From a virus (lineage: Duplodnaviria; Heunggongvirae; Uroviricota; Caudoviricetes), in the IMG/VR virus record IMGVR_UViG_3300027808_000017, positions 1 to 64,000 of that record: a stretch of 64,000 bases of DNA. The stretch is one strand, 5' to 3'. The position numbers were made by a program, and so were the translations under genes. Numbering within the stretch: the stretch's first letter is position 1; each line of letters starts with the position of its first letter. Below the pieces are notes generated by a model. That model was not told the origin of the DNA, searched no databases, and saw only the letters and a program-made list of their open reading frames with translations. Shown one piece after another: positions 17,018 through 52,778 of the stretch.

Positions 17018-18048
17018 AATACATATTGCTTGCGGTGATGCTGGCCCTAACAGCATGTGCTAGCACTACTGAGGCTGTAAGAACTTCAAGCGATAGTCCC
17101 GATGCTGGGGTCATACGTGTTCTCGGCACAGGATCAACTAAAGAAGAGGCAAAGAATAACGGCTTCACTACTGCTATCGAAATTGCTGTTGGTTCTGCAA
17201 TTCTTTCACACAAAGATGTCCGTTCCGATAAACTTATACGTGATGACATAGTGAAATACAATGCAGGTTACGTTGATAATTATAAAATCATTGACGAGAC
17301 AAAAACAAGCGGTGGTTACTCATTGTTGATGGATGTTCATGTTAAGAGCAGTCGCATACATGAACGATTATTGAGTGGGGGCGGTGACGAGAAAAATGTC
17401 AACGGTGATAAATTGGCTACTCAATATGACACATATCGTGCCCAACAAGAATCAGCCGATAAACTCATTGATGTGTTAATACAAGATTGGCCCGAAAAAG
17501 CCTTTACTATCAAACAAGGTAAACAAGAATTTAGTATTAATGAAAAACGTGTGTCTGTATTACGAATTCCAATTGAAATGAATATGAACTATAGCTATAT
17601 TATGGCATTGGATGAGTCTCTTAAAAAGATTAACCAAAAGAAAACATATTCAGATTTAAAAATTGGTATTGCAGTTAAAGCACCCGATGATTGGGTATTC
17701 GGTAGAACCAATGGATATTTCTTTGATGACATTCAACGTATAAAACAATTCCAACAAGGGTTTAATGATAACTTTTGGATTCAAGTTCATTTAAAAGATA
17801 TTAATGGTAATTTACTGTATTCTCAGTGTTTTGAACATGGAAGAAGTTTTTCATACCAAACAACTAAGGCATTTATTTTACAAGGTAATAACTCCGTAGA
17901 TTCTAACATTGAAATTGAACTAAATTCAAAACTATCCAAGACATTGCGCCAAGCATATAGTGTAGAAATGGTTCCCTCTAGAGTTTGTATCAACAAAATA
18001 TACGAAACTATACCTCTGCTAAAATGTCCCCCGCTAAACAAAAAATGA
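17014..18048 (+). CDS. lipoprotein
   Basis: MKYILLAVMLALTACAS lipobox; ATGA-coupled. Confidence 0.55.
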   Translation: MKYILLAVMLALTACASTTEAVRTSSDSPDAGVIRVLGTGSTKEEAKNNGFTTAIEIAVGSAILSHKDVRSDKLIRDDIVKYNAGYVDNYKIIDETKTSGGYSLLMDVHVKSSRIHERLLSGGGDEKNVNGDKLATQYDTYRAQQESADKLIDVLIQDWPEKAFTIKQGKQEFSINEKRVSVLRIPIEMNMNYSYIMALDESLKKINQKKTYSDLKIGIAVKAPDDWVFGRTNGYFFDDIQRIKQFQQGFNDNFWIQVHLKDINGNLLYSQCFEHGRSFSYQTTKAFILQGNNSVDSNIEIELNSKLSKTLRQAYSVEMVPSRVCINKIYETIPLLKCPPLNKK

Positions 18049-18059
18049 TAAGTAATAAT

Positions 18060-19283
18060 ATGACCGAAGAATCTAAAATAAATTATTGTCACTTTTGTGG
18101 GAACAGCAAAGAAATTGTAAAAAAACTTGTTGTTAGTGAGAAGGTTGCTATATGCAATGAGTGCGTGGAACTATGTCAGAATCTAATCAATGATGAAGTA
18201 GAGCCAGAAAATCCGATTGAACCTAATCGTGATCCGGAGGCCATCAAAGAATATCTTGATATGCACGTTGTTGGTCAAGAAGATGCTAAGATAGTTTTGA
18301 GCGTTGCTGTTGCCAATCATTATAAGCGCATCAACAATCCACCAAAAGATATTGAAATACAAAAAGGTAATGTGTTGATTGTCGGGCCTACAGGAAGTGG
18401 TAAAACATTGCTTGCTAAGACAGCCGCAAAATATCTTAAAGTGCCCTTCATTGTTGCTGATGCTACGAGTTTGACAGAAGCCGGGTATGTTGGAGATGAT
18501 GTTGAATCAATGATTAGTATGTTGATTCATGCCGCAGGTGGTGATGTAAAATTAGCCGAGCGTGGTATTATATTTGTTGATGAAATTGACAAGATTGCAC
18601 GTAAAGGTGAAAGTGCAAGTATCACCCGTGACGTATCAGGTGAAGGTGTTCAACAAGCATTGCTCAAAATGGTAGAAGGTAGTACCGTTCGTATTCCCAA
18701 AGAGGGTGGTCGTAAACATCCTGGTGGCGATATGAGTGAAATCAATACCAAAGATATATTGTTTATTGCCGGTGGCGCATTTGTTGGTCTTAAAGACATT
18801 ATTGCTAATCGTATGAATGGTACAAGTATTGGATTTAATGCTACTATCACTGACAGCAAAGTTGAAGGTGATTTGACAAAAGTCAGTCCTGATGACTTAA
18901 CCAAATATGGAATGATTCCTGAGTTCATTGGACGTTTTACTACTACAGTAAGTATCCAAGAATTGTCTAAGAAACAATTGGTTCATATTTTGACAGATGT
19001 AAAGAACAATTATATCAGTCAATACAAGTATTTGCTAAGTTTGGATAATATCAATTTATCTTTTACTAAAGAAGCCCTTGAACAAATTGCTGAGAATACA
19101 CTAACATTAAAGACCGGAGCACGTGGTTTACATACTGAGATTGAACGTGTTTTAATGTGTCATATGTTCTATACCAAGCAATACAAAGAAAATAATATAA
19201 CTATGCTAAATATAGATGTGGGTCAAATTTTAAATCCCACACCAATATATGACGAAAAAAGGAAGACAGGTACTAGTAACTGA
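18060..19283 (+). CDS. clpX: ATP-dependent Clp protease ATP-binding subunit ClpX
   Basis: N-terminal C4 zinc finger CHFCG...CNEC; Walker A GPTGSGKTLLAKT; ClpX-like length; start set at MTEESKINYCHFCG (track ORF starts further upstream). Confidence 0.85.
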   Translation: MTEESKINYCHFCGNSKEIVKKLVVSEKVAICNECVELCQNLINDEVEPENPIEPNRDPEAIKEYLDMHVVGQEDAKIVLSVAVANHYKRINNPPKDIEIQKGNVLIVGPTGSGKTLLAKTAAKYLKVPFIVADATSLTEAGYVGDDVESMISMLIHAAGGDVKLAERGIIFVDEIDKIARKGESASITRDVSGEGVQQALLKMVEGSTVRIPKEGGRKHPGGDMSEINTKDILFIAGGAFVGLKDIIANRMNGTSIGFNATITDSKVEGDLTKVSPDDLTKYGMIPEFIGRFTTTVSIQELSKKQLVHILTDVKNNYISQYKYLLSLDNINLSFTKEALEQIAENTLTLKTGARGLHTEIERVLMCHMFYTKQYKENNITMLNIDVGQILNPTPIYDEKRKTGTSN

Positions 19284-19470
19284 TGGTAATGTTGAAAAAG
19301 CATTACGTAAGTTTAAGAAAAAAATTGCAGAGCAAGGTCTACTGCAAGAAGTCCGCGACCGTCAAGAGTTCGTTAAACCCACAGTCAAACGCAAAATTGC
19401 CAAGAGCAAAGCAAAGAGTAGATGGAAGAAACATCTACGAGACCAAGAATTACCCAAAAAACTATATTAA
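19249..19470 (+). CDS. rpsU: 30S ribosomal protein S21
   Basis: VLVTDGNVEKALRKFKKKIAEQGLLQEVRDRQEFVKPTVKRK aligns with bacterial S21 ([43 protein letters not shown]); overlaps clpX 3' end. Confidence 0.75.
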   Translation: MTKKGRQVLVTDGNVEKALRKFKKKIAEQGLLQEVRDRQEFVKPTVKRKIAKSKAKSRWKKHLRDQELPKKLY

Positions 19471-19573: not shown

Positions 19574-21490
19574 ATGAGCAAAGTAATCGGTATCGACCTA
19601 GGTACCACAAATTCATGTGTAGCCGTCATTGAAAACGGAATCCCCAAAGTAATTGAAAACAGCGAAGGTGCTAGAACTACACCCTCAATCGTTGCCTATG
19701 CCAACGATGAGATTCTTGTAGGTGCTAGTGCTAAACGTCAAGCAGTTACTAATCCAAAAAATACAATCTACGCCGCAAAGCGACTGATTGGTCGTAAATT
19801 CAAAGAAGAGGCTGTACAAAAAGATATTAACTTGATGCCGTATACCATCGTTGAAAATGACAATGGTGATGCATGGGTTCAGTTAAACGATAATAAGTTA
19901 GCACCCCCGCAGATTTCAGCGGAAGTCTTACGCAAGATGAAAAAGACTGCGGAAGATTATCTAGGTCATGAAGTTACACAAGCAGTTATTACTGTTCCCG
20001 CTTATTTTAATGATAGTCAAAGACAAGCGACAAAAGATGCAGGTAAAATTGCAGGCTTGGAAGTATTGCGTATCATTAACGAACCCACAGCAGCCGCATT
20101 AGCGTATGGTGTAGATAAACAGGAAAAGCGTGACCGTAAAGTTGCTGTATATGACTTAGGTGGTGGTACCTTTGACGTATCAATCATTGAGATTGCCAAC
20201 GTTGATGGTGACACACAAGTTGAAGTATTGTCAACAAATGGCGATACATTCTTGGGTGGTGAAGACTTTGACCAACGCATCATGGACTACTTGATTAGTG
20301 AATTCAAAAAGGATTCAGGAGTCGATTTAAGTAAAGACATGCTAGCACTGCAACGACTAAAAGAAGCCGCAGAAAAGGCTAAGATTGAGTTGTCAAGTAC
20401 AGCACAAACAGATGTTAACTTACCATATGTAACAGCAGATGCTAGCGGTCCTAAGCACATGAACATTAAGTTGTCACGTAGCAAATTGGAACAGTTAGTT
20501 GATGAATTGATTCAACGCAGTATTCAACCATGTAAGACAGCTATGGCTGATGCTAAGATTTCAATAAGTGATATTGACGAGGTTATTCTTGTTGGTGGTA
20601 TGACACGTATGCCTAAAGTACAAGAAATGGTTGAATCATTTTTTGGTAAAGCACCTCGCAAGGACGTTAACCCGGATGAGGCAGTTGCCGCTGGTGCCGC
20701 TATTCAGGGTGATGTATTAGGTGGTGGACGCACAGATGTTTTATTGCTTGATGTTACTCCATTGAGTCTTGGCATTGAAACAATGGGTGGTGTGATGAGT
20801 AAGTTGATTCAAAAGAATACAACTATTCCTACTAAACAAAGTCAAACATTCAGTACAGCAGAAAACAATCAACAAGCGGTTACTATTAAAGTATTCCAAG
20901 GTGAACGTGAAATTGCACAATACAACAAGTTGCTAGGTGATTTTAACTTAGATGGAATTCCACCAGCACCAAAAGGTATGCCTCAAATCGAAGTTACATT
21001 TGATATTGATGCTAACGGCATTATGCACATCGGTGCAAAGGACAAAGGTACTGGTAAGGAAAACAAAATCACTATTAAATCAAACAGTGGTTTGAGTGAA
21101 TCAGAGATTCAAGAAATGGTTAAAGATGCTGAATTGAATGCTGAATCTGACAAGAAAGCCCGTGAATTAATTGAGGCACGTAATGGTGCAGAATCAACAT
21201 TGTATGGATTCAAACAAGACTTTAATAAGTACAGTGACAAAGTTACTGAAGAAGAAAAAACTAAAGCCGAAGAAGCAATCAAAGCAGTTGAAGAAGCAAT
21301 CAACGGGGATGACCCAACCGTTATCCAAGATAGTATTCCTAAATTATATGAGGCAATTGGTCCAATCACTAAAGCTAAAAGTGATGAAGAAGCCAAGAAA
21401 AAGGCTGAAGAGGCAACTAAGACTACAGAAGCACCAAAAGATGACAATGTAGTTGATGCAGAAGTTAAAGAGTCACCGGAGACTGTTTAA
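19574..21490 (+). CDS. dnaK: chaperone DnaK (Hsp70)
   Basis: [18 protein letters not shown]..., full-length Hsp70 (638 aa); RBS AAAGGAG. Confidence 0.9.
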
Positions 21491-21554: not shown

Positions 21555-22001
21555 ATGACAAGAGAATTAACATTAAGAGCGTTAGACATACCAACCATTC
21601 ATAGATTTGGAATAGGATTTGATTCTATGATAGATGAACTGATGCGTATGAATGCAACGCAAACTAACACCAACTACCCACCCTATAATATAGTAAAAGA
21701 ATCTGAGGATCGATTTGCTATTGAAGTAGCGGTTGCTGGGTTTAGTGAAGGTGAGGTTTCTATTGAAATAGAGAATCGTGTACTTACAATTGCCGGTAAC
21801 AAAATACATGACTTAGATAATCCTAAAGAATATCTACATCATGGGATAAGTAACCGTAATTTTATTCGTGAATTTTCTTTAGCAGAACATGTTGAAGTTA
21901 AAAGTGCTATAAATGAAAACGGGATCTTATCTATTGGACTAGAACGAATTATTCCAGAAGAGCATAAGCCCAAGAAGATTGTAATAAATTACAATAAATA
22001 A
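21555..22001 (+). CDS. small heat-shock protein (Hsp20/IbpA family)
   Basis: alpha-crystallin-like core (AVAGFSEGEVSIEIENRVLTIAG), 148 aa. Confidence 0.75.
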   Translation: MTRELTLRALDIPTIHRFGIGFDSMIDELMRMNATQTNTNYPPYNIVKESEDRFAIEVAVAGFSEGEVSIEIENRVLTIAGNKIHDLDNPKEYLHHGISNRNFIREFSLAEHVEVKSAINENGILSIGLERIIPEEHKPKKIVINYNK

Positions 22002-22024
22002 TATAATAGCATATCGTAAATACA

Positions 22025-22052
22025 AGTGTGCGGGAAACTGCACACTTTTTTG
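22025..22052 (+). terminator. rho-independent terminator
   Basis: AGTGTGC-GGGAAACT-GCACACT followed by T6. Confidence 0.6.
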
Positions 22053-22063
22053 AAAGAGAAAAA

Positions 22064-22369
22064 ATGGCACAAACAGATACGAACCTAAGCGTAAGACCTA
22101 TAGTTGATGTAAAGGAACCACCGTTGTTCAGAGTAATTTATATGAATGATGATTTAACCAGTATGGAATTTGTTATACGGAGTTTGATTGATCATTTTCA
22201 TTACACAGATGAAACCGCAGTGAATATCACAACTGGAATTCATGATTCCGGAAGTGCAGTAGTTGCAGTGTTACCATATGAAATTGCAGAACAAAAGGGT
22301 ATTGAAGTAACTATGGAAGCCAGAACTGAGGGCTATCCGTTACAAGTTAAAATTGAGGCCGAGACTTAA
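22064..22369 (+). CDS. clpS: ATP-dependent Clp protease adaptor ClpS
   Basis: PLFRVIYMNDDLTSMEFVIRSLIDHF...VAVLPYEIAEQKGIEVTMEARTEGYPLQ aligns with ClpS ([20 protein letters not shown]...); start moved to ATG 22064 after terminator. Confidence 0.65.
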   Translation: MAQTDTNLSVRPIVDVKEPPLFRVIYMNDDLTSMEFVIRSLIDHFHYTDETAVNITTGIHDSGSAVVAVLPYEIAEQKGIEVTMEARTEGYPLQVKIEAET

Positions 22370-23054
22370 ATTCTATTCGTTTAGGGTAATAAGGATTTCG
22401 GCCCGCACACGGGTTATTAAGGTAGTTGATATTGTCTAAGACAGTATCAACTATTTTTCCATGTGTGCCAAATACCCAGTGAGATACTTTGTTTTCAGTA
22501 TCATATTCTAATGCATCAGTTAGTGGTCCGGCATCATGCATATCAGGTTCTTCACCATAATATAATTTTTTAGTTGGTACAGAACTAGAAACTACCATAA
22601 TATGTTCTACTTCTGAATGGACCTGTAATCTGTGTATAGTACTGCATAGATATGAAACATCCTCATATCCAGCAACAATTAATTCTATTTCAGCCATTTT
22701 ATTTCTAGGCTTATAATTTCCATACCATCCATTAGTGGCTACGATTGCTATCTCATTTAGCACCACTACATTATCATGTAAGAATATTACATTCTTTAAT
22801 GACGCACAAATTTCTCCAATTTCTTTGATACGTTTTTCTCTAATAATTACAGTAGAGTGTTCTAACGCACCATCAATAAAAAAGACACCCTGATAGCAAT
22901 TACTCAGGGTGTCTAATACTGTTTGTAGCATTGCTAAATCATTACTGACATTACCCGCAACAATACAATATAAACTTGTAGGTTTATCTTCCCAGATAAA
23001 GGTGTCATCTACTGATAAATTCAAATCACTAATTACATCAAATCCAAGTATCAT
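22347..23054 (-). CDS. putative calcineurin-like metallophosphoesterase
   Basis: N-terminal D-x-SDLNL, later GN/GTHGK motifs; 235 aa. Confidence 0.4.
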   Translation of the reverse strand: MILGFDVISDLNLSVDDTFIWEDKPTSLYCIVAGNVSNDLAMLQTVLDTLSNCYQGVFFIDGALEHSTVIIREKRIKEIGEICASLKNVIFLHDNVVVLNEIAIVATNGWYGNYKPRNKMAEIELIVAGYEDVSYLCSTIHRLQVHSEVEHIMVVSSSVPTKKLYYGEEPDMHDAGPLTDALEYDTENKVSHWVFGTHGKIVDTVLDNINYLNNPCAGRNPYYPKRIEFKSRPQF

Positions 23055-23434: not shown

Positions 23435-23944
23435 TTGAGGTTCCAAAGCAGATTTTTTCATAAATACTGTATGTTCAAGTCCTTGTCATTGCGAGAGTTG
23501 ATGGATCTACCCTTGCCCAAAATCACCGCGCAAAAAAGACTACTATTTAGACCGGATTTAGAGGATGTGGAACATGTCTATGATTTGTTAAATGAGCATG
23601 TTTTTGATAATATTTTAGTTAAGCCTAATATTAAATTGGGCACATGCCGAGACTATTGGGGAATGTGTTATGGGGAGGACAATCCCTATAATAGCGGAAC
23701 TTATTGCAGAATCAAACTAAGTGACAAATGGTATTCTGCTCAATGGATGGTGACAATGTTATCGCATGAAATGAGTCATCAGTATCAATGGGATGTTTAC
23801 AGTCATGGTCGTAAGACTAGAGTTATGAGCCATGGACCTAGTTTCTACAGATATCAATTAAAGATGCGGGAACACAATATTTCATTGAAAACATACTATT
23901 CTACTAGACAATGGTTTAATAAACAAGATTTGTTTAAAGCGTGA
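23435..23944 (+). CDS. SprT-like zinc metallopeptidase
   Basis: HEMSHQYQW...H motif in SprT-like context; 169 aa (true start may be Met 23471). Confidence 0.55.
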   Translation: MRFQSRFFHKYCMFKSLSLRELMDLPLPKITAQKRLLFRPDLEDVEHVYDLLNEHVFDNILVKPNIKLGTCRDYWGMCYGEDNPYNSGTYCRIKLSDKWYSAQWMVTMLSHEMSHQYQWDVYSHGRKTRVMSHGPSFYRYQLKMREHNISLKTYYSTRQWFNKQDLFKA

Positions 23945-23963
23945 AAGAGATAAATACATTACT

Positions 23964-25457
23964 ATGAGAGCAATTGAATTTTTAAAAGAATCCCAAGGTG
24001 GTATATTCCGCCGTGCCCAAGAGGTTGACCAAGGTGCGGAAATCAAGTTTAAAAACGCGGAAACAAACCAAGAAATTAAACTACTGTCAGCAGAAGTATT
24101 TCCTCAAACTGGACAATACCAAACATATGAAGAATTAGACCAAGCAGTTACTGATTTTTGTACTATGTTTGAAGTTCCACCGGAGAACGTTCAGTATGCA
24201 GGTAAACCAGATAAATCACGTGCCGCAATGGTAAGTATTTGGACGGATTTAACATCAGGTGAACCAATGGCGTTTGTTAAACTTGCTACAAAACGTAGTG
24301 AAGGTGCTTCACCTATTATGCAGAGTAATGCTGATTTTAAGAATGCGTTTGGTTATGGAGATGTAGGTAAGACAGCACAACGTCAAACATTACAATTAAA
24401 ACCAAAAGACGTATTAGCATTTGATGAATGGTTAAATCCACAAGGTGTTATACGCAGTGTTACTAGCAGATTGAAAACTAGAAGTGACCTAGACGAAAAC
24501 CTGAAGCAAGGATTAGTACAGCTTGTAACTAATGTTGCCCAAGGTGTCAGTGAGCCTGTGCCGGGTATGGCACAATATTTAACAACGTTAGAAGTTGATT
24601 ACGGTGAGGTACCTGCCCCTATTGCGTTAATTACAGGTAATTTTGTAGGAGGAGACTATCTGCAAGCCGAAAAAGGATTATTAGGTCCATTAGGTTTAAA
24701 ATGGAGCGATTTATCAAAAATATTGTATCCCAAGGCCGGGGGCGAAAAGATTTATGATAGTTACATTTATATTGATGAAGAAACCAAACTTAAAGTAAGT
24801 TCAAAAGATAAAAAAGGCGGCGCAGCCGCTAGTATTACTGGATTAATTGATGAAATTAACAAAACACCAGAAAAATTTCAAAGTGTATTACTTAATAAAA
24901 AATTCGGCTCTTTACTTAATATATGTAGGACAATTGCTAGCGCACCAAATACATATCAAGGAAGTGCAAAAAAGAGTAGCAAAAGTATAAATGGCCCTTT
25001 AATTTTAGCTGTAAATACTTTTAAATTTATTGACGACAATGATGCTAGAACAATTGTAGGGTTGATGAACTCCCCAAATAATAAAATGATGCCAGAACAA
25101 GCATACAAAAAAAATGTCATTGGTCCTAATTTATGGAAGATAATTTCAGTTAAAGGTGCCAATTATAAGGACCCGGGATATAATTTAGGTTATCATGTAA
25201 TGGCATGTGTTGCAAAAAATATTGCTAATATATGTAATAGCGATCCAAATACTGATAAATTTTTTAGGTCTATTTTGGAAAGATCCAACATGGTACAAGT
25301 TAAAACTACAGTTAAAAAATCCGGTGACGGGGCGGCATTTACTAATTTTGTTGTAATGTATCCTCCGGTCTTCGATGGCAAAATGACTATGCATGCGGAT
25401 AACAATTATATGGCGACACGAAAGCCAATCGCACCATTAAGTTTCAAAATGCCTTAA
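23964..25457 (+). CDS. hypothetical protein (497 aa)
   Basis: N-terminus MRAIEFLKES resembles N-terminus of 863-aa protein at 46123. Confidence 0.5.
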   Translation: MRAIEFLKESQGGIFRRAQEVDQGAEIKFKNAETNQEIKLLSAEVFPQTGQYQTYEELDQAVTDFCTMFEVPPENVQYAGKPDKSRAAMVSIWTDLTSGEPMAFVKLATKRSEGASPIMQSNADFKNAFGYGDVGKTAQRQTLQLKPKDVLAFDEWLNPQGVIRSVTSRLKTRSDLDENLKQGLVQLVTNVAQGVSEPVPGMAQYLTTLEVDYGEVPAPIALITGNFVGGDYLQAEKGLLGPLGLKWSDLSKILYPKAGGEKIYDSYIYIDEETKLKVSSKDKKGGAAASITGLIDEINKTPEKFQSVLLNKKFGSLLNICRTIASAPNTYQGSAKKSSKSINGPLILAVNTFKFIDDNDARTIVGLMNSPNNKMMPEQAYKKNVIGPNLWKIISVKGANYKDPGYNLGYHVMACVAKNIANICNSDPNTDKFFRSILERSNMVQVKTTVKKSGDGAAFTNFVVMYPPVFDGKMTMHADNNYMATRKPIAPLSFKMP

Positions 25458-25519: not shown

Positions 25520-26107
25520 ATGAGTCTAGTCCCAATCGTCATTGAACAAACAAGCAAAGGTGAGCGTAGTTATGATATCTACAGCCGTCTATTGCGTGAC
25601 CGTGTAATTTTACTTGAGGGTGAAGTACATGACCAAATGGCAAATCTTATTGTTGCCCAATTGCTATTCCTAGAATCAGAGGGTGACAAGGATATTTCAA
25701 TGTATATCAATAGTCCCGGCGGTAGTGTGACAGCAGGTATGGCAATCTATGATGCTATGCAATTCGTTAAGCCTGATATTCATACAATTGTAATGGGTCA
25801 GGCATGTTCTATGGGTAGTCTACTCGCACAATCAGGTGCACCCGGTAAACGTTTTATGTTGCCCAATGCAAGGCACATGATTCATCAACCTTCAGGTGGT
25901 GCAAGAGGTCAAGCAACTGATATGCTGATTCAGGTAAATGAAATACTTGAAATGAAAAAGAACCTAACAGGAATCTACACTAAGCACAATTCAAAAGGTA
26001 AAACTTTTGATGTACTCCAAGCTGATATGGAACGTGATAATTTTATGAGTGCTCAACAAGCATTTGACTATGGACTAGTAGACGAAATAGTTACAAAGCG
26101 AGGTTAA
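25520..26107 (+). CDS. clpP: ATP-dependent Clp protease proteolytic subunit ClpP
   Basis: [27 protein letters not shown] (Ser), HQP...GQATD (His/Asp) catalytic triad context; 195 aa. Confidence 0.9.
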
Positions 26108-34822: not shown

Positions 34823-35587
34823 ATGCCAAACGAAACTATTGTTGAACTTGCTGTAAGTGCGGATAGGCTTGTCAATTTGATTAGTAAATTAAAGCCAGTA
34901 AAAACACAAACTGAACTAATGAGAGTTGGATCTACCCAAGATGGTGGATATTTAGTTCCGGATGATGTCGGGGGGATAATTGCATGTTTCTCTCCTGGAG
35001 TAGAACATACATCAACATTTGAATTAGATTTACTTGAATCTTTTGGAATCAATTCTCATTTAGCAGATTATTCAGTAGACGGTCCTCCTGCATATTTTAA
35101 CCCATTATCGTTTACTAAAAAATTCTTGGGCGCAATAAACAATGATGTATATATGACAATGGATTCATGGGTAAAGAGTACACCTGAATACGAATCTATT
35201 GGTGATTTTCTACTTCAAATGGATATTGAATTTGGTGAGTACAGTACATTGCTTGCAACTTCGGATGAGATTCTTAAAAGATTTAGAATTATAGTTATTG
35301 AAGTACATCACATTGACAAATGGGGACACCCCTCTTTCTTTAACATAGCAGAATCATTCTTTGATAAACTGTTACAACATTTTCATGTAGTACATGCACA
35401 TCCTAATAATTATGGCACTGTTATTAATGTTAATGGAGTAGAGTTACCGCAAACTATTGAATTTACTTTACTTGCAAAAGACAGATGTAATATATCAGGG
35501 TTTGTTGATACTTTTCCAGATGAATTAGATAGTCCGTGCTGCCCTGATAAAAATGAACTAGTGTTACCTGATATTTGGTATAAATGA
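34823..35587 (+). CDS. hypothetical protein, tandem paralog B
   Basis: collinear homolog of 33999-34799. Confidence 0.5.
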   Translation: MPNETIVELAVSADRLVNLISKLKPVKTQTELMRVGSTQDGGYLVPDDVGGIIACFSPGVEHTSTFELDLLESFGINSHLADYSVDGPPAYFNPLSFTKKFLGAINNDVYMTMDSWVKSTPEYESIGDFLLQMDIEFGEYSTLLATSDEILKRFRIIVIEVHHIDKWGHPSFFNIAESFFDKLLQHFHVVHAHPNNYGTVINVNGVELPQTIEFTLLAKDRCNISGFVDTFPDELDSPCCPDKNELVLPDIWYK

Positions 35588-36126
35588 AACAAAAATTTAT
35601 AGATTACTTCATGGATGTAGCTGAACGCACTAGTCAGTTAAGCCATGCTATACGATTGCAAGTTGGTGCTATCATTGTTAAAGATGATAGGATCATCAGC
35701 ATCGGATACAACGGTATGCCTAGTGGTTGGGACAACAATTGTGAAGATAAAGAATACATGAGTAGTGATGCCGGGGGTTGGTTAGATCCTAATGAGATTT
35801 ATGAACGATGGCCGTTTGAAGAAAAACCCAGAATTCAATGGTTTGGGGATGACTCTATAACTGTTACCAATAGATATAAACTGAAAACGAAACAAGAGGT
35901 GTTACATGCTGAAACAAATGCGATTGCAAAACTGGCTAAGTCTAACGAATCTGGTGTGGGTGCTACTTTGTTTATTACCCATTCTCCATGTTTGGACTGT
36001 GCCAAACTTATATACCAAAGTGGTATTAACAACGTTCTATACCGTAACACTTATCGTAGCGATGATGGTATAGATTTCTTAAACAAGAGTGGAGTCAATG
36101 TCACCCAACACACAGTACAAAACTGA
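35584..36126 (+). CDS. dCMP deaminase
   Basis: zinc-binding HAETNAI ... PCLDCAKLI (H-A-E / PCxxC). Confidence 0.8.
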   Translation: MKQKFIDYFMDVAERTSQLSHAIRLQVGAIIVKDDRIISIGYNGMPSGWDNNCEDKEYMSSDAGGWLDPNEIYERWPFEEKPRIQWFGDDSITVTNRYKLKTKQEVLHAETNAIAKLAKSNESGVGATLFITHSPCLDCAKLIYQSGINNVLYRNTYRSDDGIDFLNKSGVNVTQHTVQN

Positions 36127-37781: not shown

Positions 37782-38564
37782 TTAATTTAACAAATCTGGT
37801 TGTTCTTTTAGGATTCTATGATACAGTGGTTGAAAACTAAACCAACCTGCAAATGCTGATCCCACGATTGAATACGATTGTTCACATGATTCCGTAGAAA
37901 TACTTTTTGGGCTATGGGTGACACCCGCAGATTCTGTCAATAACTGTACCTGACAACTTCTTTCCATGGTAATAAACCACCATGCGGCTGCGTCAACAGT
38001 ATCGCCCACAGTCAGCAAACCGTGATTTTGTAGGATTACCGCTTTGTTTGCCCCCAGTGCATTGGCTATTCTTTTACCCTCATCAAGTTCAACTGCCACA
38101 CCACCAAAGTCTTGATATACTGAATGATCATTGTAAAAAGCACAAACATCTTGTGTCAGCATGTCAAGAGGTTTACCAAATGTGCTCCATGCCCTACCGT
38201 ACATACTATGTGAATGTGCCGCTGCCATAGCATCAGGTCGGGCGTGATGAACACTGCTGTGTATTGCAAAACCTGCTGTGTTAACAGGATGATTACCTTC
38301 AATGACATTTCCTGAATGGTCTACTCTGAGCAAATTAGACACACACACCTGACTAAAATGCACTCCAAACGGATTAATCCAAAACGTGTCTAAAAATTCT
38401 GGATCCCGAGCCGTTATATGCCCCGCGACACCTTCATCAAATCCAAATTTTGAAAAAAGACGAAACGCCGCAGCCAGGCGCTGTTTGCAATGAAGTCGGT
38501 GGTCTTGGGGATTTGAAAACACCGGCGGGGTTGGTAAATCTAATGCCATTTTACGTTGATCCAT
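37782..38564 (-). CDS. class II aldolase/adducin-domain protein
   Basis: GHITARDP..., HSH, LQNHGLLTVG motifs typical of class II aldolase/adducin N-terminal domain; G+C-richer. Confidence 0.55.
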   Translation of the reverse strand: MDQRKMALDLPTPPVFSNPQDHRLHCKQRLAAAFRLFSKFGFDEGVAGHITARDPEFLDTFWINPFGVHFSQVCVSNLLRVDHSGNVIEGNHPVNTAGFAIHSSVHHARPDAMAAAHSHSMYGRAWSTFGKPLDMLTQDVCAFYNDHSVYQDFGGVAVELDEGKRIANALGANKAVILQNHGLLTVGDTVDAAAWWFITMERSCQVQLLTESAGVTHSPKSISTESCEQSYSIVGSAFAGWFSFQPLYHRILKEQPDLLN

Positions 38565-38576
38565 AATTATTTTCTT

Positions 38577-39095
38577 TTATTGTGATGGGTTTGAGAGGCA
38601 GCTTCTCTGTACTTCGTTTAACATCATATAACGTTCACGCTGTCCGTGATGAATATTATAAATCAAATCGGCAATATTCCGAGTGATACGCATGAATTCT
38701 GGATTACAATGATGTGGGAATGTTTGTACAAATGTTTTCTTTGTATAGTCCCAGTCATTATCCCGCATGATAAATGCATAATGTGTGAGTTCGTGTCCTA
38801 GGCCCCAATCTATCATCTCATAACCATAATGTTTCAGTGTTTCGGGAGAGATGATAATTTGCATATCATAGTCAGAGTTATCTAGTATAGGAAATTGAAA
38901 CATCATTCTTACTCCAGGGGGCAGCGTTTCAACGGTGATTGGTGGCATGGGTAAATCTACAGGAGCGCCCACACGCTGTTTGATAAATTTCCACTCTAGT
39001 TCAATCACTGGCCAATCTAAATCCGATAATATCGGTTGGACGTTGGCTATGGAGCTAGTTAGGCAGAATAGGAACGCCATTGCTATGTATTTCAT
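38577..39095 (-). CDS. secreted HExxH zinc metallopeptidase-like protein
   Basis: signal peptide MKYIAMAFLFCLTSSIANVQP; GLGHELTHYAF. Confidence 0.5.
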   Translation of the reverse strand: MKYIAMAFLFCLTSSIANVQPILSDLDWPVIELEWKFIKQRVGAPVDLPMPPITVETLPPGVRMMFQFPILDNSDYDMQIIISPETLKHYGYEMIDWGLGHELTHYAFIMRDNDWDYTKKTFVQTFPHHCNPEFMRITRNIADLIYNIHHGQRERYMMLNEVQRSCLSNPSQ

Positions 39096-39963: not shown

Positions 39964-40299
39964 TTAATGTTTTCTAGGATGGTTTATAAACCATCTCTCT
40001 AATTCTTCCAAATTTAAATCACCATCAAAGTGTTTCTTAAATCCCTTATAGAATCTTATCTTTTCTGGATCTCCGTTGAATCGTTCCATGATTTGATCTT
40101 CTTCTAACTGCTCCCGTTGAAACTCTGGTAATATTTCTTTATAGCTGTAATATCCAAATAAAATAAAACAAGCAAGCACTGATGTTATGAAAATGAAGGC
40201 ATATATATAGTCGTGGAAAATAATTAAAATTATAGGTACTAAAAAGACACCAAGAATTGATAGCAAAATTAACGATAGTGTTTTAGTTACTGGATTCAT
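39964..40299 (-). CDS. 2-TM membrane protein
   Basis: TM helices LSLILLSILGVFLVPIILIIF and FIFITSVLACFILFGYY. Confidence 0.45.
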   Translation of the reverse strand: MNPVTKTLSLILLSILGVFLVPIILIIFHDYIYAFIFITSVLACFILFGYYSYKEILPEFQREQLEEDQIMERFNGDPEKIRFYKGFKKHFDGDLNLEELERWFINHPRKH

Positions 40300-41122
40300 T
40301 TTCTGTTTTCTTTCTCTCTTTCTCTGCTAAAAATTCTTCATATTCTTTTAATTTTTTCTGTCGTTCAAACCATTCCTGTTTCCTCAATTCGGCTAGGCGA
40401 GTTTGATATGGTTTATTTTTTATGTCATATCCCCATCTTGTTTGAGCATCATGTGCTATCCACATCATTAACCCACCTATGACTAACATTACAATAATAA
40501 CACCCACACCAAACATAAACTCAAATTGATACTTAGCCATTCTTTGTTTGCGTCTTAATGCTTGTGCCGCCTCTGCTCGCATTTGTTTTGCAACAAGAAT
40601 TTTTTGTTCAGTACCCATTTCTTTAGTCATTAAGTCTACTTCGGTGTACAATGCACCCAGTTCAGGTGGTGATTGGTAGATCATGAGTTCACGCAATTCT
40701 TTACCCATTTGTTCTAATTGCTTTTTCATTAGAACACGTTTTAATGCACGTTTAGCTAAACTATCACCACCACTATATACTTCTGTCTTACTGCGCTTTT
40801 CTTCTTCTTCAAGTACTGCTAGACATTTGAAATAGTTATCGTAGTAAGCGCCCAGACTGTCTCCAATTTCTGTATAGATATTGGTGCTTTCCTCACTACG
40901 TTTGTTTAGTTCTTTTACGCGGGTTTTTTCTTCTGCTAACTGCTTAACCGCGGCAGGTGGAACAGGTTTTCCCTCATACTTTTTATGAAACTGGTCATCT
41001 AAATCTTTTAGTACGCCCTTTACATCACCTGTCGCACTCTTAATGTCTTTATAAAGTTGGCACCCCTTCTTAACGGCTTGTACTGCGCCGTTTGCTAAGG
41101 CAAAGAGGGTAAACGGATCCAT
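40283..41122 (-). CDS. coiled-coil protein with C-proximal TM segment
   Basis: 279 aa; TM FMFGVGVIIVMLVIGGLMMWI. Confidence 0.5.
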   Translation of the reverse strand: MDPFTLFALANGAVQAVKKGCQLYKDIKSATGDVKGVLKDLDDQFHKKYEGKPVPPAAVKQLAEEKTRVKELNKRSEESTNIYTEIGDSLGAYYDNYFKCLAVLEEEEKRSKTEVYSGGDSLAKRALKRVLMKKQLEQMGKELRELMIYQSPPELGALYTEVDLMTKEMGTEQKILVAKQMRAEAAQALRRKQRMAKYQFEFMFGVGVIIVMLVIGGLMMWIAHDAQTRWGYDIKNKPYQTRLAELRKQEWFERQKKLKEYEEFLAEKERKKTENESSN

Positions 41123-41159: not shown

Positions 41160-41711
41160 TTAGATAGGTAACCAAAGCCAAAGTGCTTGGCTCATTAGTA
41201 TCATTGCTACACCACCTACATATAAACTTGCTGTATATAGACGATTGTTAACTGATAAGATACTTGCTGATAAAAGAACAATAGCAATTTGAAATAAGCT
41301 ACCTGCAAATGTATACCATGGACTACGTAGTTTAGCCACTGCACGTTCATCTTCTAATTTACGTGCTTTAGCCATTAACTCTTTTTTACCTTCACCAGAT
41401 TCTGGATCAGATTCGTAACGGTCAATTTTAGCCTGTAGTCGTGCAACTTTTTCCTTGTCACCTCTAGCTAAGGCATCATCACGTGCCATTTCTGCTAATG
41501 TACCCTTGATACTTTTAGCTTGATAGAAGCTCCAAGTATTGTTAGCATCAATAGTATTGTTCAATACTTTACCACTATTACTACCACCTATATAGGTATT
41601 GATAGCAAGTAGTGCCGCAAATACGACAATAACCCATCCTGCTTTATCCTTGATTAATGCCTCACGCTCTGAACGAGATAGAGGTTTTGCTTCTTGTTTT
41701 ACTTCTGCCAT
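41160..41711 (-). CDS. membrane protein
   Basis: 183 aa; TM near N-term and C-term; RBS AAGGGAG. Confidence 0.5.
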   Translation of the reverse strand: MAEVKQEAKPLSRSEREALIKDKAGWVIVVFAALLAINTYIGGSNSGKVLNNTIDANNTWSFYQAKSIKGTLAEMARDDALARGDKEKVARLQAKIDRYESDPESGEGKKELMAKARKLEDERAVAKLRSPWYTFAGSLFQIAIVLLSASILSVNNRLYTASLYVGGVAMILMSQALWLWLPI

Positions 41712-45574: not shown

Positions 45575-46126
45575 ATGTACGATATTGTAGAGAAAATCAG
45601 TGAATCCAGAACAAAAAAATTAGAGATAGTCAAGCTATCCTATGACCTTTCCGACCTCAATCCAGTATTAAGCAAAAAGACAATGGATTATCACTATGGG
45701 GATTTAGCCCATGGATATGCATCCCGATACAACAAGGGTGAGGGTGACAAAGATTTCAATTATGCGGGTGCTTTCCTGCACAACATTTATTTTCCGCAGT
45801 TTCGCAAAATACAAGAAGATAACACTCCTAACGGTCCTGTACTAGGAATCATTAAGCGTAAGTACGATTGGTGGAGAGATTTTAAAGAACAATTCAAACA
45901 AGAAGCCATGAAGATACAGGGTAGTGGTTGGATTTATATGAGTTATACAGGTGAGATAAAGACTATTGTTAACCACGAGGTTCGTGAAGATATTCTTATT
46001 CTAGTTGACTGGTGGGAACATGCTTGGGCCTTAGACTATCAAGCAGATAAAAAAGGTTACTTAGAAAACATTTGGAAGATAATGAACTGGAGTCACATCA
46101 ATACCCGCTGGGGGAAGAATTTATGA
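45575..46126 (+). CDS. Fe/Mn superoxide dismutase homolog
   Basis: SKKTMDYHYGDLAHGY ~ QTMEIHHTKHHQTY; GSGWIYM ~ GSGWAWL; DWWEHAWALDYQ...IWKIMNW ~ DVWEHAYYLKFQ...FWNVVNW. Confidence 0.6.
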   Translation: MYDIVEKISESRTKKLEIVKLSYDLSDLNPVLSKKTMDYHYGDLAHGYASRYNKGEGDKDFNYAGAFLHNIYFPQFRKIQEDNTPNGPVLGIIKRKYDWWRDFKEQFKQEAMKIQGSGWIYMSYTGEIKTIVNHEVREDILILVDWWEHAWALDYQADKKGYLENIWKIMNWSHINTRWGKNL

Positions 46127-48663
46127 GAGCCACTGAATTTATAACTGAATCTAAAACTGTAGAGTACGAAGGCTTAACACTAAAAATAAGTAAACAAGGT
46201 CATGAGTTAATAGTCAATGCCCTTGATGATTGGGGTAATAAAGTATTAGGCCATGTAAGATTCAACATAGGTGATGGTAAAGAATTAGACCCACAAGACC
46301 TTAAAGTTGATGATAAGTATCAAGGTCAAGGCATCGCTAAAGTCATGTATGATTATGTTAAAAGTCTTGGCTATACGATTGCTAGAAGTTATGACCAAAC
46401 TGATGCCGGTGCAGGCTTTTGGAACAAGCATCGCGGAGAAGATGTTCGTATTTGGGAAGCCCGAGCCGGTGGAAAACTGAATAGAAAATACGATTCGGCC
46501 CGTCGAGAAGTTAAAAGCATTTTGAACAGCCCATACATAAACTTAAAAGAGTGGGGTCTGAGCATGACTATGTTGCCCAAACTAGGTATTAATCCTGGCA
46601 AGGGCATCAGCGAGGATACTCCCAAGGGCATTTACTTTTATCCATTAGCGTATGTCAATGATTGGGTCAATGGTTCTGAGGAGTTACCATGGGGTAATGA
46701 TTTCCCATACATACAAGTGTTTCAATACGATACTAGTCATCGAATGACACCGGACACAAAAGTTGATCCTGAGAGATTAAAGGCAACACTGCGTCAATAT
46801 TGTCCTGAAGAAGTTATCAATCAATTAATAGAAGAAGGCACATACAACAATGATCCTTATTGGTTTATTTATAATTGCCTAATTCAAGTAAGCAAGAATG
46901 ATGAATCTACTATTATTCGTTGGAATAAAATATTAAGAGACTTGGGCTTTACTAGTGTTTATGACTATGGCAAGGGCTGGATAGCACACAACGAACCAGA
47001 GCAAGGTATTATCTTAGATCCAAGAATCATCAAGCAGGTTCAAACTTTTAACAACTACACACGTAAGCAAGGTGTAGCGGAGGGCAAGGTCAAACTCTAC
47101 ACAGATCCTGGCTATTTTGGGGCAGAAGTAGATGACACAGGGTTTGATGGCCTACCAGTAGTCAACATACCCACTAATCAACTTGTGGGATTTGAACCAG
47201 ATTCAAAGATGAATCAACCAAAAAGCCGAGCCAATGTTGAAAAAATAGTAGCAGGATTGAAACAAGGTGACAAGTTGCCACCATTGTTGGTTCGCAAATA
47301 TAAAAATGGATATCAAGTATTAGATGGTCATCATAGATTCTGGGCCTATAAATTGTCGGGTACAAAATCTATTCCATCACGAATTGTACCTGATAAAGAT
47401 ATAGAAGAAATCAGTAAACAAGGTGTGGTAGAAAGTGTCAATGACTATCTATGGCACGGGTCTAGGTATAGAAATGAGGTACTAGTACCGCGTCAGGCTA
47501 ATGATACCGGTGGTAAAGAAGAAAGTAATAAAAATGCTATATATGCTACTCCTAGTGCAAAAGTTGCTATAGCAATGGGGCTAACTACTCCTGGATCAGA
47601 TACCGGAATGTTTCCAAACGATCCACAAATGGTACTATTCAAAGGCGGTATTAGAAAAGGTGAAATGGTTTACTTGCACAAGGTACCTAAAGATTTATTC
47701 ATAAAACACAACAGCAGAGAATGGTATAGTAAACCCGATGTAAAAGAAATTACACCTATAGAAGTAGTAACAGTTCCTGTAGACAAATGGTTAAGTTTGA
47801 TTAGAACTGCTACCCCTAAAGATTTAGAATTACAGAAAAAAAACATGAAGAAGCAAGGTGTGGCGGAAGGCTTAGATGATAATAGAGTTAGTTTCAAGGT
47901 ACAAAAAGGTAAAAACAAATTTGCAACTACTTTAAGTGTTGGTGGCGACCCAGTAGGAGTATACCAATATGATGCTGATACAGGTCGTAGCATAGCCGAG
48001 ATTTATCCAGAATTCAAAGGCAAAGGATTAGGTAAATTATTGGTTTTACATGCTATCTATACCGCGGCTAATTTGGGATTAGATTTCCAAGAAGATGAAT
48101 CAAGAACCTCAGAGTATGATAATGTATTAGATAGTTTGAGTAGTAACGGTTATATTGTAGATGACGATGGATATTGGTATGTAACCGGTCAAGGTGAACA
48201 ATATCTACAACAATCATTAAAACAAGGTGTGGCGGAAGGTGATGACAAATTAAAAGATCCAATAGCAAATGCAATATTAGATTTCTATCAACATGCCGGA
48301 CATATTAGCAAAGACCCAATTGATAACTATGTTGGTACTGCAAAAGAATTGCTAAGTCAGGTCAGTGATCCTACAGTCAAATCAAAGATACTAGATATTT
48401 TCAAACAAGCAAAACAAAGCCCATATGTTCAAGGTGGAGTTGTTACAACTATTGGTGCATTACTTGCCGGTGGAGTATTAAGTTCAGCACAGAAAATGGG
48501 ATTGAGTCCAGCGCAAACTAACTTAGTGTTACAAGCGATACTAAATACAGTTATACCTACTGTGGTGTCCAGGATCAATGGAAAGAGTTGGAGTGACACA
48601 GTTAAGTACACACTAGCAAGTGCAGGCATTGGTACTGGCATTGCTGGTATGATGGAGGAATAA
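46123..48663 (+). CDS. large multidomain protein: GNAT-like / ParB-like nuclease domain / second GNAT-like, with KQGVAEG linker repeats and hydrophobic C-terminus
   Basis: GNAT motif A-like YQGQGIAKVMYDYV and KGKGLGKLLVLHAIY; ParB/Srx motif GYQVLDGHHRFWAYKL; start at MRATEFITES (GGGGGAAG RBS). Confidence 0.5.
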   Translation: MRATEFITESKTVEYEGLTLKISKQGHELIVNALDDWGNKVLGHVRFNIGDGKELDPQDLKVDDKYQGQGIAKVMYDYVKSLGYTIARSYDQTDAGAGFWNKHRGEDVRIWEARAGGKLNRKYDSARREVKSILNSPYINLKEWGLSMTMLPKLGINPGKGISEDTPKGIYFYPLAYVNDWVNGSEELPWGNDFPYIQVFQYDTSHRMTPDTKVDPERLKATLRQYCPEEVINQLIEEGTYNNDPYWFIYNCLIQVSKNDESTIIRWNKILRDLGFTSVYDYGKGWIAHNEPEQGIILDPRIIKQVQTFNNYTRKQGVAEGKVKLYTDPGYFGAEVDDTGFDGLPVVNIPTNQLVGFEPDSKMNQPKSRANVEKIVAGLKQGDKLPPLLVRKYKNGYQVLDGHHRFWAYKLSGTKSIPSRIVPDKDIEEISKQGVVESVNDYLWHGSRYRNEVLVPRQANDTGGKEESNKNAIYATPSAKVAIAMGLTTPGSDTGMFPNDPQMVLFKGGIRKGEMVYLHKVPKDLFIKHNSREWYSKPDVKEITPIEVVTVPVDKWLSLIRTATPKDLELQKKNMKKQGVAEGLDDNRVSFKVQKGKNKFATTLSVGGDPVGVYQYDADTGRSIAEIYPEFKGKGLGKLLVLHAIYTAANLGLDFQEDESRTSEYDNVLDSLSSNGYIVDDDGYWYVTGQGEQYLQQSLKQGVAEGDDKLKDPIANAILDFYQHAGHISKDPIDNYVGTAKELLSQVSDPTVKSKILDIFKQAKQSPYVQGGVVTTIGALLAGGVLSSAQKMGLSPAQTNLVLQAILNTVIPTVVSRINGKSWSDTVKYTLASAGIGTGIAGMMEE
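47065..48240 (+). repeat. three copies of a ~20-nt intragenic direct repeat encoding KQGVAEG
   Basis: AAGCAAGGTGTAGCGGAGGGC at 47065-47085, AAGCAAGGTGTGGCGGAAGG at 47851-47870, AACAAGGTGTGGCGGAAGGT at 48221-48240. Confidence 0.7.
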
Positions 48664-52751: not shown

Positions 52752-52778
52752 AAAAAGCCCCTTAAGGGGCTTTTTTGT
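52752..52778. terminator. bidirectional rho-independent terminator between convergent genes
   Basis: AAAAAAAGCCCCTT-AA-GGGGCTTTTTTG. Confidence 0.75.

What the first reader, a model, noticed from the sequence alone, without database searches (positions are those of the whole stretch)
22064..22369. Orphan ClpS adaptor with no ClpA in the window
ClpS docks on the ClpA N-domain, not on ClpX. It switches ClpAP from SsrA or aggregated substrates to N-degron substrates. A phage ClpS without a phage ClpA would most simply act on host ClpAP, as an inhibitor or redirector, i.e. a host-takeover factor. The convergent overlap with the minus-strand gene and the terminator immediately upstream suggest independent regulation.
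Basis: inference. Interest (0 to 1): 0.6.

Follow-up and report, generated by a model that had tools for sequence, protein, structure and literature searches.

The report
Phage ClpS adaptor, probably not orphan
The gene is a genuine ClpS protease adaptor in an uncultured freshwater jumbo phage, but it sits in a phage-encoded ClpX/DnaK/Hsp20/ClpP cluster whose cultured relatives also carry their own ClpA elsewhere, so the "orphan adaptor that hijacks host ClpA" reading is probably a result of seeing only 64 kb.

Summary
Bases 22064-22369 (+) encode a 101-aa ClpS (Pfam E=2e-23). Its model superposes on solved ClpS at 0.7 A. N-degron pocket and ClpA-docking residues are conserved. No ClpA/ClpC-like gene lies in the window or within 10 kb beyond either end.

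ClpS is not isolated. It sits in a conserved phage block: clpX, bS21, dnaK, hsp20, clpS, SprT-like, clpP. This block is a core feature of a very abundant family of about 330-370 kb freshwater phages.

In cultured Pseudomonas phage PA5oct the same block runs on into GroES, clamp loader, PhoH, DnaJ, ClpA. Sinorhizobium phage Phosso also carries both blocks. A freshwater phage family of the same size class and habitat carries that second block with a full-length ClpA. ClpA was present in all 11 unbiased cases that could be scored.

I could not find one contig holding both genes, so a phage ClpA in this lineage is inferred (about 0.75), not shown.

Best reading: ClpS is the N-degron adaptor of a phage-encoded ClpAP/ClpXP and chaperone system. 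Acting only on host ClpA remains possible (about 0.2) and was already proposed in the literature. This is a new member of a known kind, of modest interest.

The parts
22064..22369 (+). clpS coding sequence (101 aa, stop TAA 22367-22369)
   Evidence: Pfam PF02617 E=1.9e-23; PDB ClpS matches; model-to-structure TM 0.97; M1 conserved in 80/80 relatives
22024..22051 (+). Intrinsic-terminator-like hairpin (10-bp stem, GAAA loop, U-run) between hsp20 and clpS; a GAAAGAG Shine-Dalgarno-like stretch follows at 22052-22058
   Evidence: strand folding dG -15.5, z=-4.7; a similar hairpin in 39/96 relatives; sequence read directly
22347..23054 (-). 235-aa degenerate metallophosphoesterase-like gene, convergent with clpS, with a 23-nt overlap of the 3' ends
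   Evidence: ORF list; PHROG 1649 E=3e-5; always adjacent to clpS in relatives
21555..22001 (+). hsp20 (small heat-shock protein), directly upstream of clpS
   Evidence: Pfam HSP20 E=2.9e-17; PHROG 432 E=1e-40; Hsp20-ClpS adjacency also in PA5oct and (one gene apart) Phosso
19574..21490 (+). dnaK (Hsp70, 638 aa)
   Evidence: precomputed Pfam HSP70 on the identical protein; ORF
19249..19470 (+). ribosomal protein bS21 gene, overlapping the 3' end of clpX
   Evidence: Pfam Ribosomal_S21 on the identical gene in public contigs; translation
18024..19283 (+). clpX (419 aa): zinc-finger N-domain, Walker A GPTGSGKT, GYVG pore loop, DEIDK, RKH and IGF loops
   Evidence: Pfam zf-C4_ClpX + AAA_2; motifs read from the translation
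23501..23944 (+). SprT-like metalloprotease gene
   Evidence: Pfam SprT-like E=8e-8; gene call in public contigs
23964..25457 (+). 497-aa protein of unknown function between SprT-like and clpP; conserved in position, variable in length
   Evidence: no Pfam or PHROG hit; same position in relatives
25520..26107 (+). clpP (195 aa) with Ser-His-Asp triad context
   Evidence: Pfam CLP_protease on the identical protein; PHROG 94; sequence

Best explanation
The gene encodes a functional ClpS, the small adaptor that binds proteins by a destabilising N-terminal residue and hands them to the ClpA unfoldase for degradation by ClpP. It belongs to a proteostasis block (clpX, bS21, dnaK, hsp20, clpS, SprT-like, clpP) of an uncultured freshwater jumbo phage of about 360 kb. 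Most likely the phage also encodes its own ClpA outside the window, in a conserved module: GroES, clamp loader, PhoH, DnaJ, peptide deformylase, ClpA. ClpS would then work mainly with phage ClpA and phage ClpP as a virus-encoded N-degron pathway alongside phage ClpXP. Shown: ClpS identity, fold and conserved functional residues; the cluster; absence of ClpA within about 84 kb; the existence of the ClpA module in related phages. Inferred: that this very genome carries the module; that ClpS binds phage rather than (or as well as) host ClpA; the substrates. Candidates for substrates are fragments made by the neighbouring SprT-like proteases or proteins with processed N-termini.
For: ClpS identity and fold.

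Functional residues. By alignment to E. coli ClpS, window N28/D29/D30/T32/M34/H60 correspond to E. coli N34/D35/D36/T38/M40/H66, and E73/E76/K78 to E79/E82/K84. The roles of these residues come from my memory of Erbse 2006, Zeth 2002, Wang 2008 and Schuenemann 2009.

Selection. Across 95 relatives N28, D29, T32 and H60 are kept in all correctly aligned sequences, and the stretch LPYEIAEQKGIEVT is nearly invariant (A2).

Abundance. At least 577 IMG/VR loci carry this ClpS, on contigs up to 367 kb.

Cultured relatives. All ClpS-bearing phage records shown also have ClpA. PA5oct has GTP-CH-I, QueD, ClpX, S21, Hsp20, ClpS, ligase, ClpP, MazG, GroES, clamp loader, PhoH, DnaJ, ClpA in one 27-kb run. 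Its first half matches the window lineage (ClpX 42%, ClpP 49%, GTP-CH-I 57%). Its second half matches the freshwater ClpA module in the same order (clamp loader 55%, PhoH 53%, ClpA 42%). Phosso has S21...sHSP-Tk-ClpS and DnaJ-Pdf-ClpA in one genome, with ClpX 16 kb upstream of ClpS.

The freshwater ClpA module. It lies on contigs of 320-383 kb from the same kinds of samples. It shares accessory genes with ClpS loci at 60-83% identity. In an unbiased clamp-loader scan, all 11 chunks reaching past Pdf contained ClpA. The family ClpA has a Clp_N domain aligned over the whole E. coli N-domain and an IGF loop.
Against: No contig carrying both this ClpS type and ClpA was found. Nine ClpS contigs of at least 315 kb and five ClpA contigs of at least 320 kb in IMG/VR are all different. 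A calibration suggests this is weak evidence: only 1 of 5 long clamp-loader contigs reappeared in my ClpA lists, so zero overlap has a probability of roughly 0.13-0.25 even if every genome has both genes. It still favours absence.

ClpA is not where PA5oct synteny would place it. Nothing ClpA-like lies from 32 kb upstream to 52 kb downstream of clpS, nor within 10-15 kb of clpS in about 230 related loci.

The family's signature promoter-like repeat is absent from about 4 Mb of ClpA and clamp-loader loci.

No biochemical data exist for any phage ClpS.
Confidence: 0.68

Rival explanations
1. One reading: this phage lineage has no ClpA of its own. Its ClpS docks on the host's ClpA and either redirects host ClpAP to N-degron substrates or blocks its normal substrates, as a host-takeover factor.
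For: No ClpA in about 84 kb around clpS. No contig with both genes among all long contigs sampled. ClpA-docking residues are conserved and would fit any proteobacterial-type ClpA N-domain. The idea is already proposed for jumbo-phage ClpS (PMC7824862).
Against: All ClpS-bearing phage records shown, including the cultured groups, also encode ClpA. The window block is homologous to the half of a PA5oct region that continues into ClpA. The ClpA module was universal where it could be scored in the related freshwater family (11/11). Sampling was too sparse for the lack of overlap to be decisive.
Confidence: 0.2
2. ClpS has been re-wired to a partner other than ClpA, for example the phage ClpX encoded 3 kb upstream or one of the conserved unknown proteins of the cluster (553, 344 or 497 aa). 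It would feed N-degron substrates to phage ClpXP.
For: clpS, clpX and clpP are kept together in every relative examined and in PA5oct. Several cluster proteins have no recognisable domains.
Against: ClpX here is entirely canonical, with a zinc-finger N-domain and no Clp_N domain. The ClpA-docking helix of ClpS is the best-conserved part of the protein. No ClpS-ClpX interaction is known (established knowledge). No Clp_N domain was found in the cluster proteins tested.
Confidence: 0.04
3. The gene is a recently captured host gene carried as cargo with no role in infection.
For: ClpS is a cellular gene family, and phage genomes pick up host genes.
Against: It is conserved in position and sequence in at least 577 viral loci spanning 60-100% identity, with functional residues kept. 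The nearest non-family matches in the phage-record collection are only about 37% identical. The same cluster occurs in distantly related cultured jumbo phages.
Confidence: 0.02

Closest known systems
Bacterial ClpS (E. coli P0A8Q6; C. crescentus ClpS), the N-recognin adaptor of ClpAP
   Same: Same Pfam family and same fold (TM 0.88-0.97, rmsd 0.7-1.8 A). N-degron pocket residues and ClpA-docking residues are conserved. A disordered N-terminal extension precedes the core.
   Different: Only 35-40% identical. The N-terminal extension is about 5-6 residues shorter than in E. coli and is Lys-rich. E. coli Y37, P39 and M62 are L31, S33 and T56 here. The gene is not next to clpA, as it is in the classic clpS-clpA operon, but sits next to hsp20, dnaK, clpX and clpP in a phage.
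ClpS of Pseudomonas jumbo phage PA5oct and relatives (gp260, EST35_0260; PHROG 27368)
   Same: Phage-encoded ClpS directly downstream of hsp20 in a ClpX-S21-...-Hsp20-ClpS...ClpP block. The family matches PHROG 27368.
   Different: 33% identity. PA5oct lacks DnaK in the block and has ClpA 21 kb downstream of ClpS. Here no ClpA lies within 52 kb downstream. No function has been tested in PA5oct either.
ClpS of Atu_ph07 / Sinorhizobium phage Phosso (jumbo phages with ClpX, ClpA, ClpB, ClpP, ClpS)
   Same: S21, small HSP and ClpS are clustered, with ClpX nearby. DnaJ-Pdf-ClpA lies elsewhere in the same genome.
   Different: 41% identity over residues 16-78 only. The genomes are 470-490 kb and the hosts are soil alphaproteobacteria.

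Membership tests
ClpS (PF02617) N-recognin adaptor | Sequence match to the ClpS family above the curated threshold | tested here: met
   82.5 bits against a cutoff of 23, profile positions 1-79 of 80
ClpS (PF02617) N-recognin adaptor | ClpS alpha/beta fold | tested here: met
   AlphaFold model core pLDDT 85-89; Foldseek top 36 hits are all ClpS structures; TM(target) up to 0.97, rmsd 0.7 A
ClpS (PF02617) N-recognin adaptor | N-degron pocket residues (E. coli N34, D35, D36, T38, M40, H66) | tested here: met
   Aligned to N28, D29, D30, T32, M34, H60. These are invariant or nearly so in 95 relatives, except D30, which varies among D/E/N. Residue roles are taken from memory of the literature. Binding was not tested.
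ClpS (PF02617) N-recognin adaptor | ClpA N-domain docking residues (E. coli E79, E82, K84) | tested here: met
   Aligned to E73, E76, K78 inside the almost invariant LPYEIAEQKGIEVT block. Residue roles are from memory. Binding was not tested.
ClpS (PF02617) N-recognin adaptor | Flexible N-terminal extension long enough to engage the ClpA pore | tested here: inconclusive
   Residues 1-19 are predicted disordered and the first strand starts at residue 21. That is about 5-6 residues shorter than in E. coli. P12, E18, P19 and P20 are conserved. The length requirement is known only for E. coli.
ClpS (PF02617) N-recognin adaptor | A ClpA/ClpC partner with a Clp_N domain available in the same system | tested here: inconclusive
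   None in the window or 10 kb beyond each end. Present in syntenic cultured relatives and in a related freshwater phage family. Not linked to this lineage on one contig.
Phage-encoded complete Clp system (as in PA5oct, Atu_ph07/Phosso) | ClpX, ClpP and ClpS encoded together in a phage genome | tested here: met
   clpX 18024-19283, clpS 22064-22369, clpP 25520-26107; the contigs are in IMG/VR
Phage-encoded complete Clp system (as in PA5oct, Atu_ph07/Phosso) | ClpA encoded by the same phage genome | not testable with these tools
The evidence is indirect.

The most novel reading that the evidence does not exclude
This abundant freshwater lineage may really have lost ClpA while keeping ClpS under strong purifying selection beside its own ClpX and ClpP. 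ClpS would then have to work through the host's ClpA (a dedicated host-protease hijack) or, more radically, through a non-ClpA partner such as phage ClpX.
Probability: 0.2. Interest if true: 0.55.

Novelty: new member of a known kind. Interest (0 to 1): 0.3.

Why it matters
Phage-encoded ClpS has been annotated in several jumbo phages and discussed in passing, but never tested. This locus shows that ClpS, with intact pocket and docking residues, is a core gene of one of the most abundant groups of large freshwater phages. It always lies within a block holding ClpX, DnaK, Hsp20 and ClpP. If the inferred phage ClpA is confirmed, these viruses carry a complete N-degron degradation pathway plus chaperones of their own. 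That would be a testable case of a virus setting up its own protein quality control rather than borrowing the host's. If ClpA is truly absent, it becomes a clean model for adaptor-based hijacking of a host protease. As it stands the finding is an ordinary annotation with a likely window-edge effect.

Tried and rejected
1. Linking ClpS and ClpA on one contig. I compared contig names and lengths from four ClpA scans, two ClpS scans and one clamp-loader scan of IMG/VR, one metagenome scan and one GTDB scan. I also used twelve contig lookups and three cluster listings. No shared contig was found.

2. Equal contig lengths as a fingerprint. Two apparent matches (23,630 bp and 37,636 bp) proved to be different contigs.

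3. Two IMG/VR contigs from sample 3300028392 (223,176 bp with ClpA, 148,970 bp with ClpS). Their sum is close to a 372,016-bp ClpA contig, but the ClpA loci are not similar at DNA level, so I dropped the idea.

4. Extending the window 10 kb each way. The left side holds queuosine-type genes and UvdE. The right side holds peptidase S11, DUF2828, rubrerythrin and rotamase. There is no ClpA.

5. The promoter-like repeat as a genome signature to tie ClpA loci to the ClpS family. It is absent from all ClpA and clamp-loader loci. It is also absent from 20-25 kb stretches of the window itself, so this is uninformative.

6. Testing whether the window's 682-aa gene or the GNAT-ParB gene flanks the ClpA module in relatives. 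It does not.

7. Host inference from the nearest bacterial ClpS. The GTDB scan returned only mis-binned phage contigs.

8. 'Captured host gene with no role' is rejected on conservation. 'Not a phage' is rejected on IMG/VR membership and synteny with PA5oct.

Full report
**What is at the coordinates.**

The plus-strand ORF from ATG 22064 to TAA 22369 encodes 101 aa. It matches Pfam ClpS (PF02617) over nearly the whole profile at E=1.9e-23 and the phage family PHROG 27368. Solved ClpS proteins from C. crescentus, E. coli and Agrobacterium match at E=2e-13 to 1e-10.

An AlphaFold model built on 32 homologues has core pLDDT of 85-89. Residues 1-19 are disordered, followed by the order strand-helix-helix-strand-helix-strand. 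Its 36 best Foldseek matches in the PDB are all ClpS structures. Target-normalised TM reaches 0.97 and rmsd is 0.7-1.0 A.

Some public gene calls start at GTG 22028. That codon lies inside a strong hairpin, and the Met at 22064 is conserved in all 80 relatives aligned to it. The ATG start is therefore correct.

**Functional residues.**

The HMMER alignment to E. coli ClpS gives these correspondences:
- Window N28, D29, D30, T32, M34, H60 align with E. coli N34, D35, D36, T38, M40, H66.
- Window E73, E76, K78 align with E. coli E79, E82, K84.

The first set forms the N-degron pocket and the second contacts the ClpA N-domain. This is from my memory of Erbse et al. 2006, Zeth et al. 2002, Wang et al. 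2008 and Schuenemann et al. 2009.

In 95 related sequences N28, D29, T32 and H60 are kept in every correctly aligned sequence. M34 is kept in 84. D30 varies conservatively (D/E/N). The stretch LPYEIAEQKGIEVT, which contains the docking residues, is almost invariant. The protein is under purifying selection for both of ClpS's known activities.

The N-terminal extension is about 5-6 residues shorter than in E. coli. It is conserved in the family (P12, E18, P19, P20).

**Surroundings.**

clpS is one gene of a plus-strand block:
- proteins of 553, 209 and 344 aa with no recognisable domains
- clpX at 18024-19283
- bS21 at 19249-19470
- dnaK at 19574-21490
- hsp20 at 21555-22001
- clpS
- two minus-strand genes
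- a SprT-like protease gene at 23501-23944
- an unknown 497-aa protein
- clpP at 25520-26107

ClpX is canonical. It has a zinc finger, GPTGSGKT, GYVG, DEIDK, RKH and IGF motifs. ClpP has the usual catalytic context.

Between hsp20 and clpS lies a terminator-like hairpin at 22024-22051 (dG -15.5, z=-4.7). A similar hairpin is seen in 39 of 96 relatives under a strict test. I found no convincing promoter after it.

The 3' end of clpS overlaps by 23 nt a conserved 235-aa gene on the other strand. That gene looks like a degenerate metallophosphoesterase.

**Is there a ClpA in the window?**

No. tblastn with E. coli ClpA and B. subtilis ClpC hits only clpX. Pfam scans of the larger ORFs show no Clp_N domain. 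The 10 kb beyond each end hold no ClpA either. The left side carries GTP cyclohydrolase I, PTPS, radical SAM and UvdE. The right side carries peptidase S11, DUF2828, rubrerythrin and rotamase.

**What organism is this?**

No deposited phage is close at DNA level. The identical DnaK lies on 15 metagenome contigs.

Contigs reach 315-367 kb. In other assemblies the contigs are 359-370 kb. It is therefore a core gene of a very abundant family of uncultured freshwater jumbo phages.

The only GTDB hits are mis-binned contigs of the same phages.

**Does the phage have a ClpA elsewhere?**

Every phage record with a ClpS hit for which rows were shown also has a full-length ClpA. These include the PA5oct group, Serratia phage BF, Erwinia pEa_SNUABM phages and Sinorhizobium phage Phosso.

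A ClpA alignment retrieves from IMG/VR a large family of about 750-aa ClpA proteins. They are 44-46% identical to E. coli ClpA, carry the N-domain, and lie on freshwater viral contigs of matching GC. In the protein collection this family sits on contigs of 320-383 kb.

Its neighbourhood is a conserved module: PolIII-alpha fragment, GroES, clamp loader, PhoH (opposite strand), holin-like, DnaJ, peptide deformylase, ClpA, then DsbA and PolB. The module is kept in both deep ClpA subgroups.

In an unbiased clamp-loader motif scan, all 11 chunks that reach past Pdf contain ClpA.

**The link through cultured phages.**

PA5oct carries the following in one 27-kb run: GTP cyclohydrolase I, QueD, ClpX, S21, Hsp20, ClpS, FtsH, ligase, ClpP, MazG, GroES, clamp loader, PhoH, DnaJ, ClpA.

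The first half has its homologues in the window lineage: GTP-CH-I 57%, ClpX 42%, S21 46%, ClpS 33%, ClpP 49%. The second half has its homologues, in the same order, in the freshwater ClpA module: clamp loader 55%, PhoH 53%, GroES 42%, ClpA 42%.

Phosso likewise has S21...sHSP-Tk-ClpS at 389.7-398.3 kb, ClpX at 381 kb and DnaJ-Pdf-ClpA at 124-127.8 kb in one genome.

Several accessory genes sit in the ClpA module in some freshwater lineages and near clpS in others. They include CTP-transferase-like (83%), a 95-aa protein (80%), dCMP deaminase (up to 70% in these comparisons), ferredoxin (75-80%) and DUF4337 (65%). This is what one gene pool would produce.

**What I could not show.**

No contig with both genes turned up. 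In IMG/VR, nine ClpS contigs of at least 315 kb and five ClpA contigs of at least 320 kb are all different (and the scans behind it). Attempts by contig-length fingerprint gave two false leads.

The tools return at most 80-120 hits per scan and 10 kb around a hit, so whole contigs cannot be read. As a calibration, only 1 of 5 long family-type clamp-loader contigs reappeared in my ClpA lists, although ClpA lies a few kb away on them. Zero overlap therefore has a probability of roughly 0.13-0.25 even if all genomes carry both genes. That is mild evidence against, not a refutation.

ClpA is also not where PA5oct synteny would put it. The family's promoter-like repeat does not occur in ClpA loci. 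The same repeat is missing from 20-25 kb stretches of the window too.

Weighing these points, I put the chance that this phage encodes its own ClpA at about 0.75.

**Mechanism.**

Most likely ClpS binds proteins with N-terminal Leu, Phe, Tyr or Trp in its pocket. It docks by its conserved helix on the N-domain of the phage ClpA. It feeds in its flexible N-terminus and hands the substrate over for degradation by phage ClpP, while damping ClpA's other activities. This is the established ClpS mechanism, inferred here from conserved residues.

Possible sources of substrates are speculative. They include cleavage products of the adjacent SprT-like proteases and proteins whose N-termini are processed by the deformylase encoded next to ClpA.

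Action on host ClpA as well, or instead, is not excluded.

**Comparison with what is known, and novelty.**

Phage ClpS genes are annotated in PA5oct, MIJ3, Rak2-like phages, Atu_ph07 and Phosso. Iyer et al. 2021 (PMC7824862) already suggested that phage ClpS brings targets to host ClpAP. The Atu_ph07 paper (PMC6102473) lists ClpX, ClpA, ClpB, ClpP and ClpS in one phage. I found no experimental work on any phage ClpS.

This locus is therefore a new member of a known kind. The 'orphan' aspect is probably a result of the window's limits. Interest is modest (0.3). It would rise to about 0.55 if complete genomes proved that ClpA is absent.

Noticed in passing
window + strand 7148, 7440, 7881, 27560, 28045, 28563; - strand 54223, 54418, 56688, 57264, 57818, 62676, 62970: Thirteen copies of a promoter-like repeat, TTGACAATAAAT-N6-GGGTATATAAT (perfect sigma-70 -35 and -10 boxes, 17-nt spacer). 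All point in the direction of the downstream genes. Each is followed by one of two conserved leaders and an ATG. The repeat occurs in 42 of 47 related ClpS loci of at least 15 kb and in none of about 4 Mb of ClpA or clamp-loader loci. It suggests host sigma-70-dependent early transcription and a host with canonical promoters.
   Followed up: partly
window 19249-19470: A ribosomal protein bS21 gene overlaps the 3' end of clpX. The same ClpX-S21 pairing occurs in PA5oct, and S21 lies near ClpS in Phosso.
   Followed up: partly
window 19574-21490: Full-length phage DnaK (638 aa), with no DnaJ or GrpE in the window or 10 kb beyond. A DnaJ gene sits beside Pdf-ClpA in the related ClpA module, so the Hsp70 system also appears split between two genome regions.
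   Followed up: partly
window 23501-23944 (+) and 38577-39095 (-): Two SprT-like metalloprotease genes, one of them two genes downstream of clpS. They are possible generators of new N-termini for an N-degron pathway. This is speculative.
   Followed up: no
window 35584-36126, 41160-41711 (-), 59267-59554 (-), 50355-50678; locus L462 3352-3816: Several small accessory genes lie near clpS in this lineage but inside the clamp-loader-to-ClpA module in other lineages, at 60-83% identity. They are dCMP deaminase, DUF4337, a 95-aa protein, a 107-aa protein and a CTP-transferase-like gene.
   Followed up: partly
window 37782-38564 (-), 40283-41122 (-), 45575-46126, 46072-48663, 63407-63970 (-): Unusual cargo for a phage: class II aldolase, an Alp7A-like actin, an Fe/Mn superoxide dismutase-like protein (46% identical to PA5oct gp261), an 863-aa GNAT plus ParB N-domain fusion, and a D-Ala-D-Ala carboxypeptidase (peptidase S11).
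   Followed up: no
loci L268, L270 (NZ_JBBAKG010000110.1, NZ_JBBAKG010000031.1), L269, L271: Contigs of related phages are binned into GTDB genomes labelled Haliscomenobacter sp. EUL_031, an uncultured actinobacterium and an Enterobacteriaceae MAG. These are contaminated bins or, at best, weak and mutually inconsistent host hints.
   Followed up: partly
window 52751-52776: A perfect 26-nt palindrome immediately after the 682-aa gene, at the switch from the plus-strand block to the minus-strand block. It may be a bidirectional terminator.
   Followed up: no
locus L876 (PA5oct MK797984.1 168.4-195.8 kb): PA5oct carries ClpX, S21, Hsp20, ClpS, FtsH, ClpP, GroES, DnaJ and ClpA in one 27-kb run. 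The PA5oct omics paper does not mention any Clp gene. It is a ready cultivable model for testing phage ClpS.
   Followed up: partly
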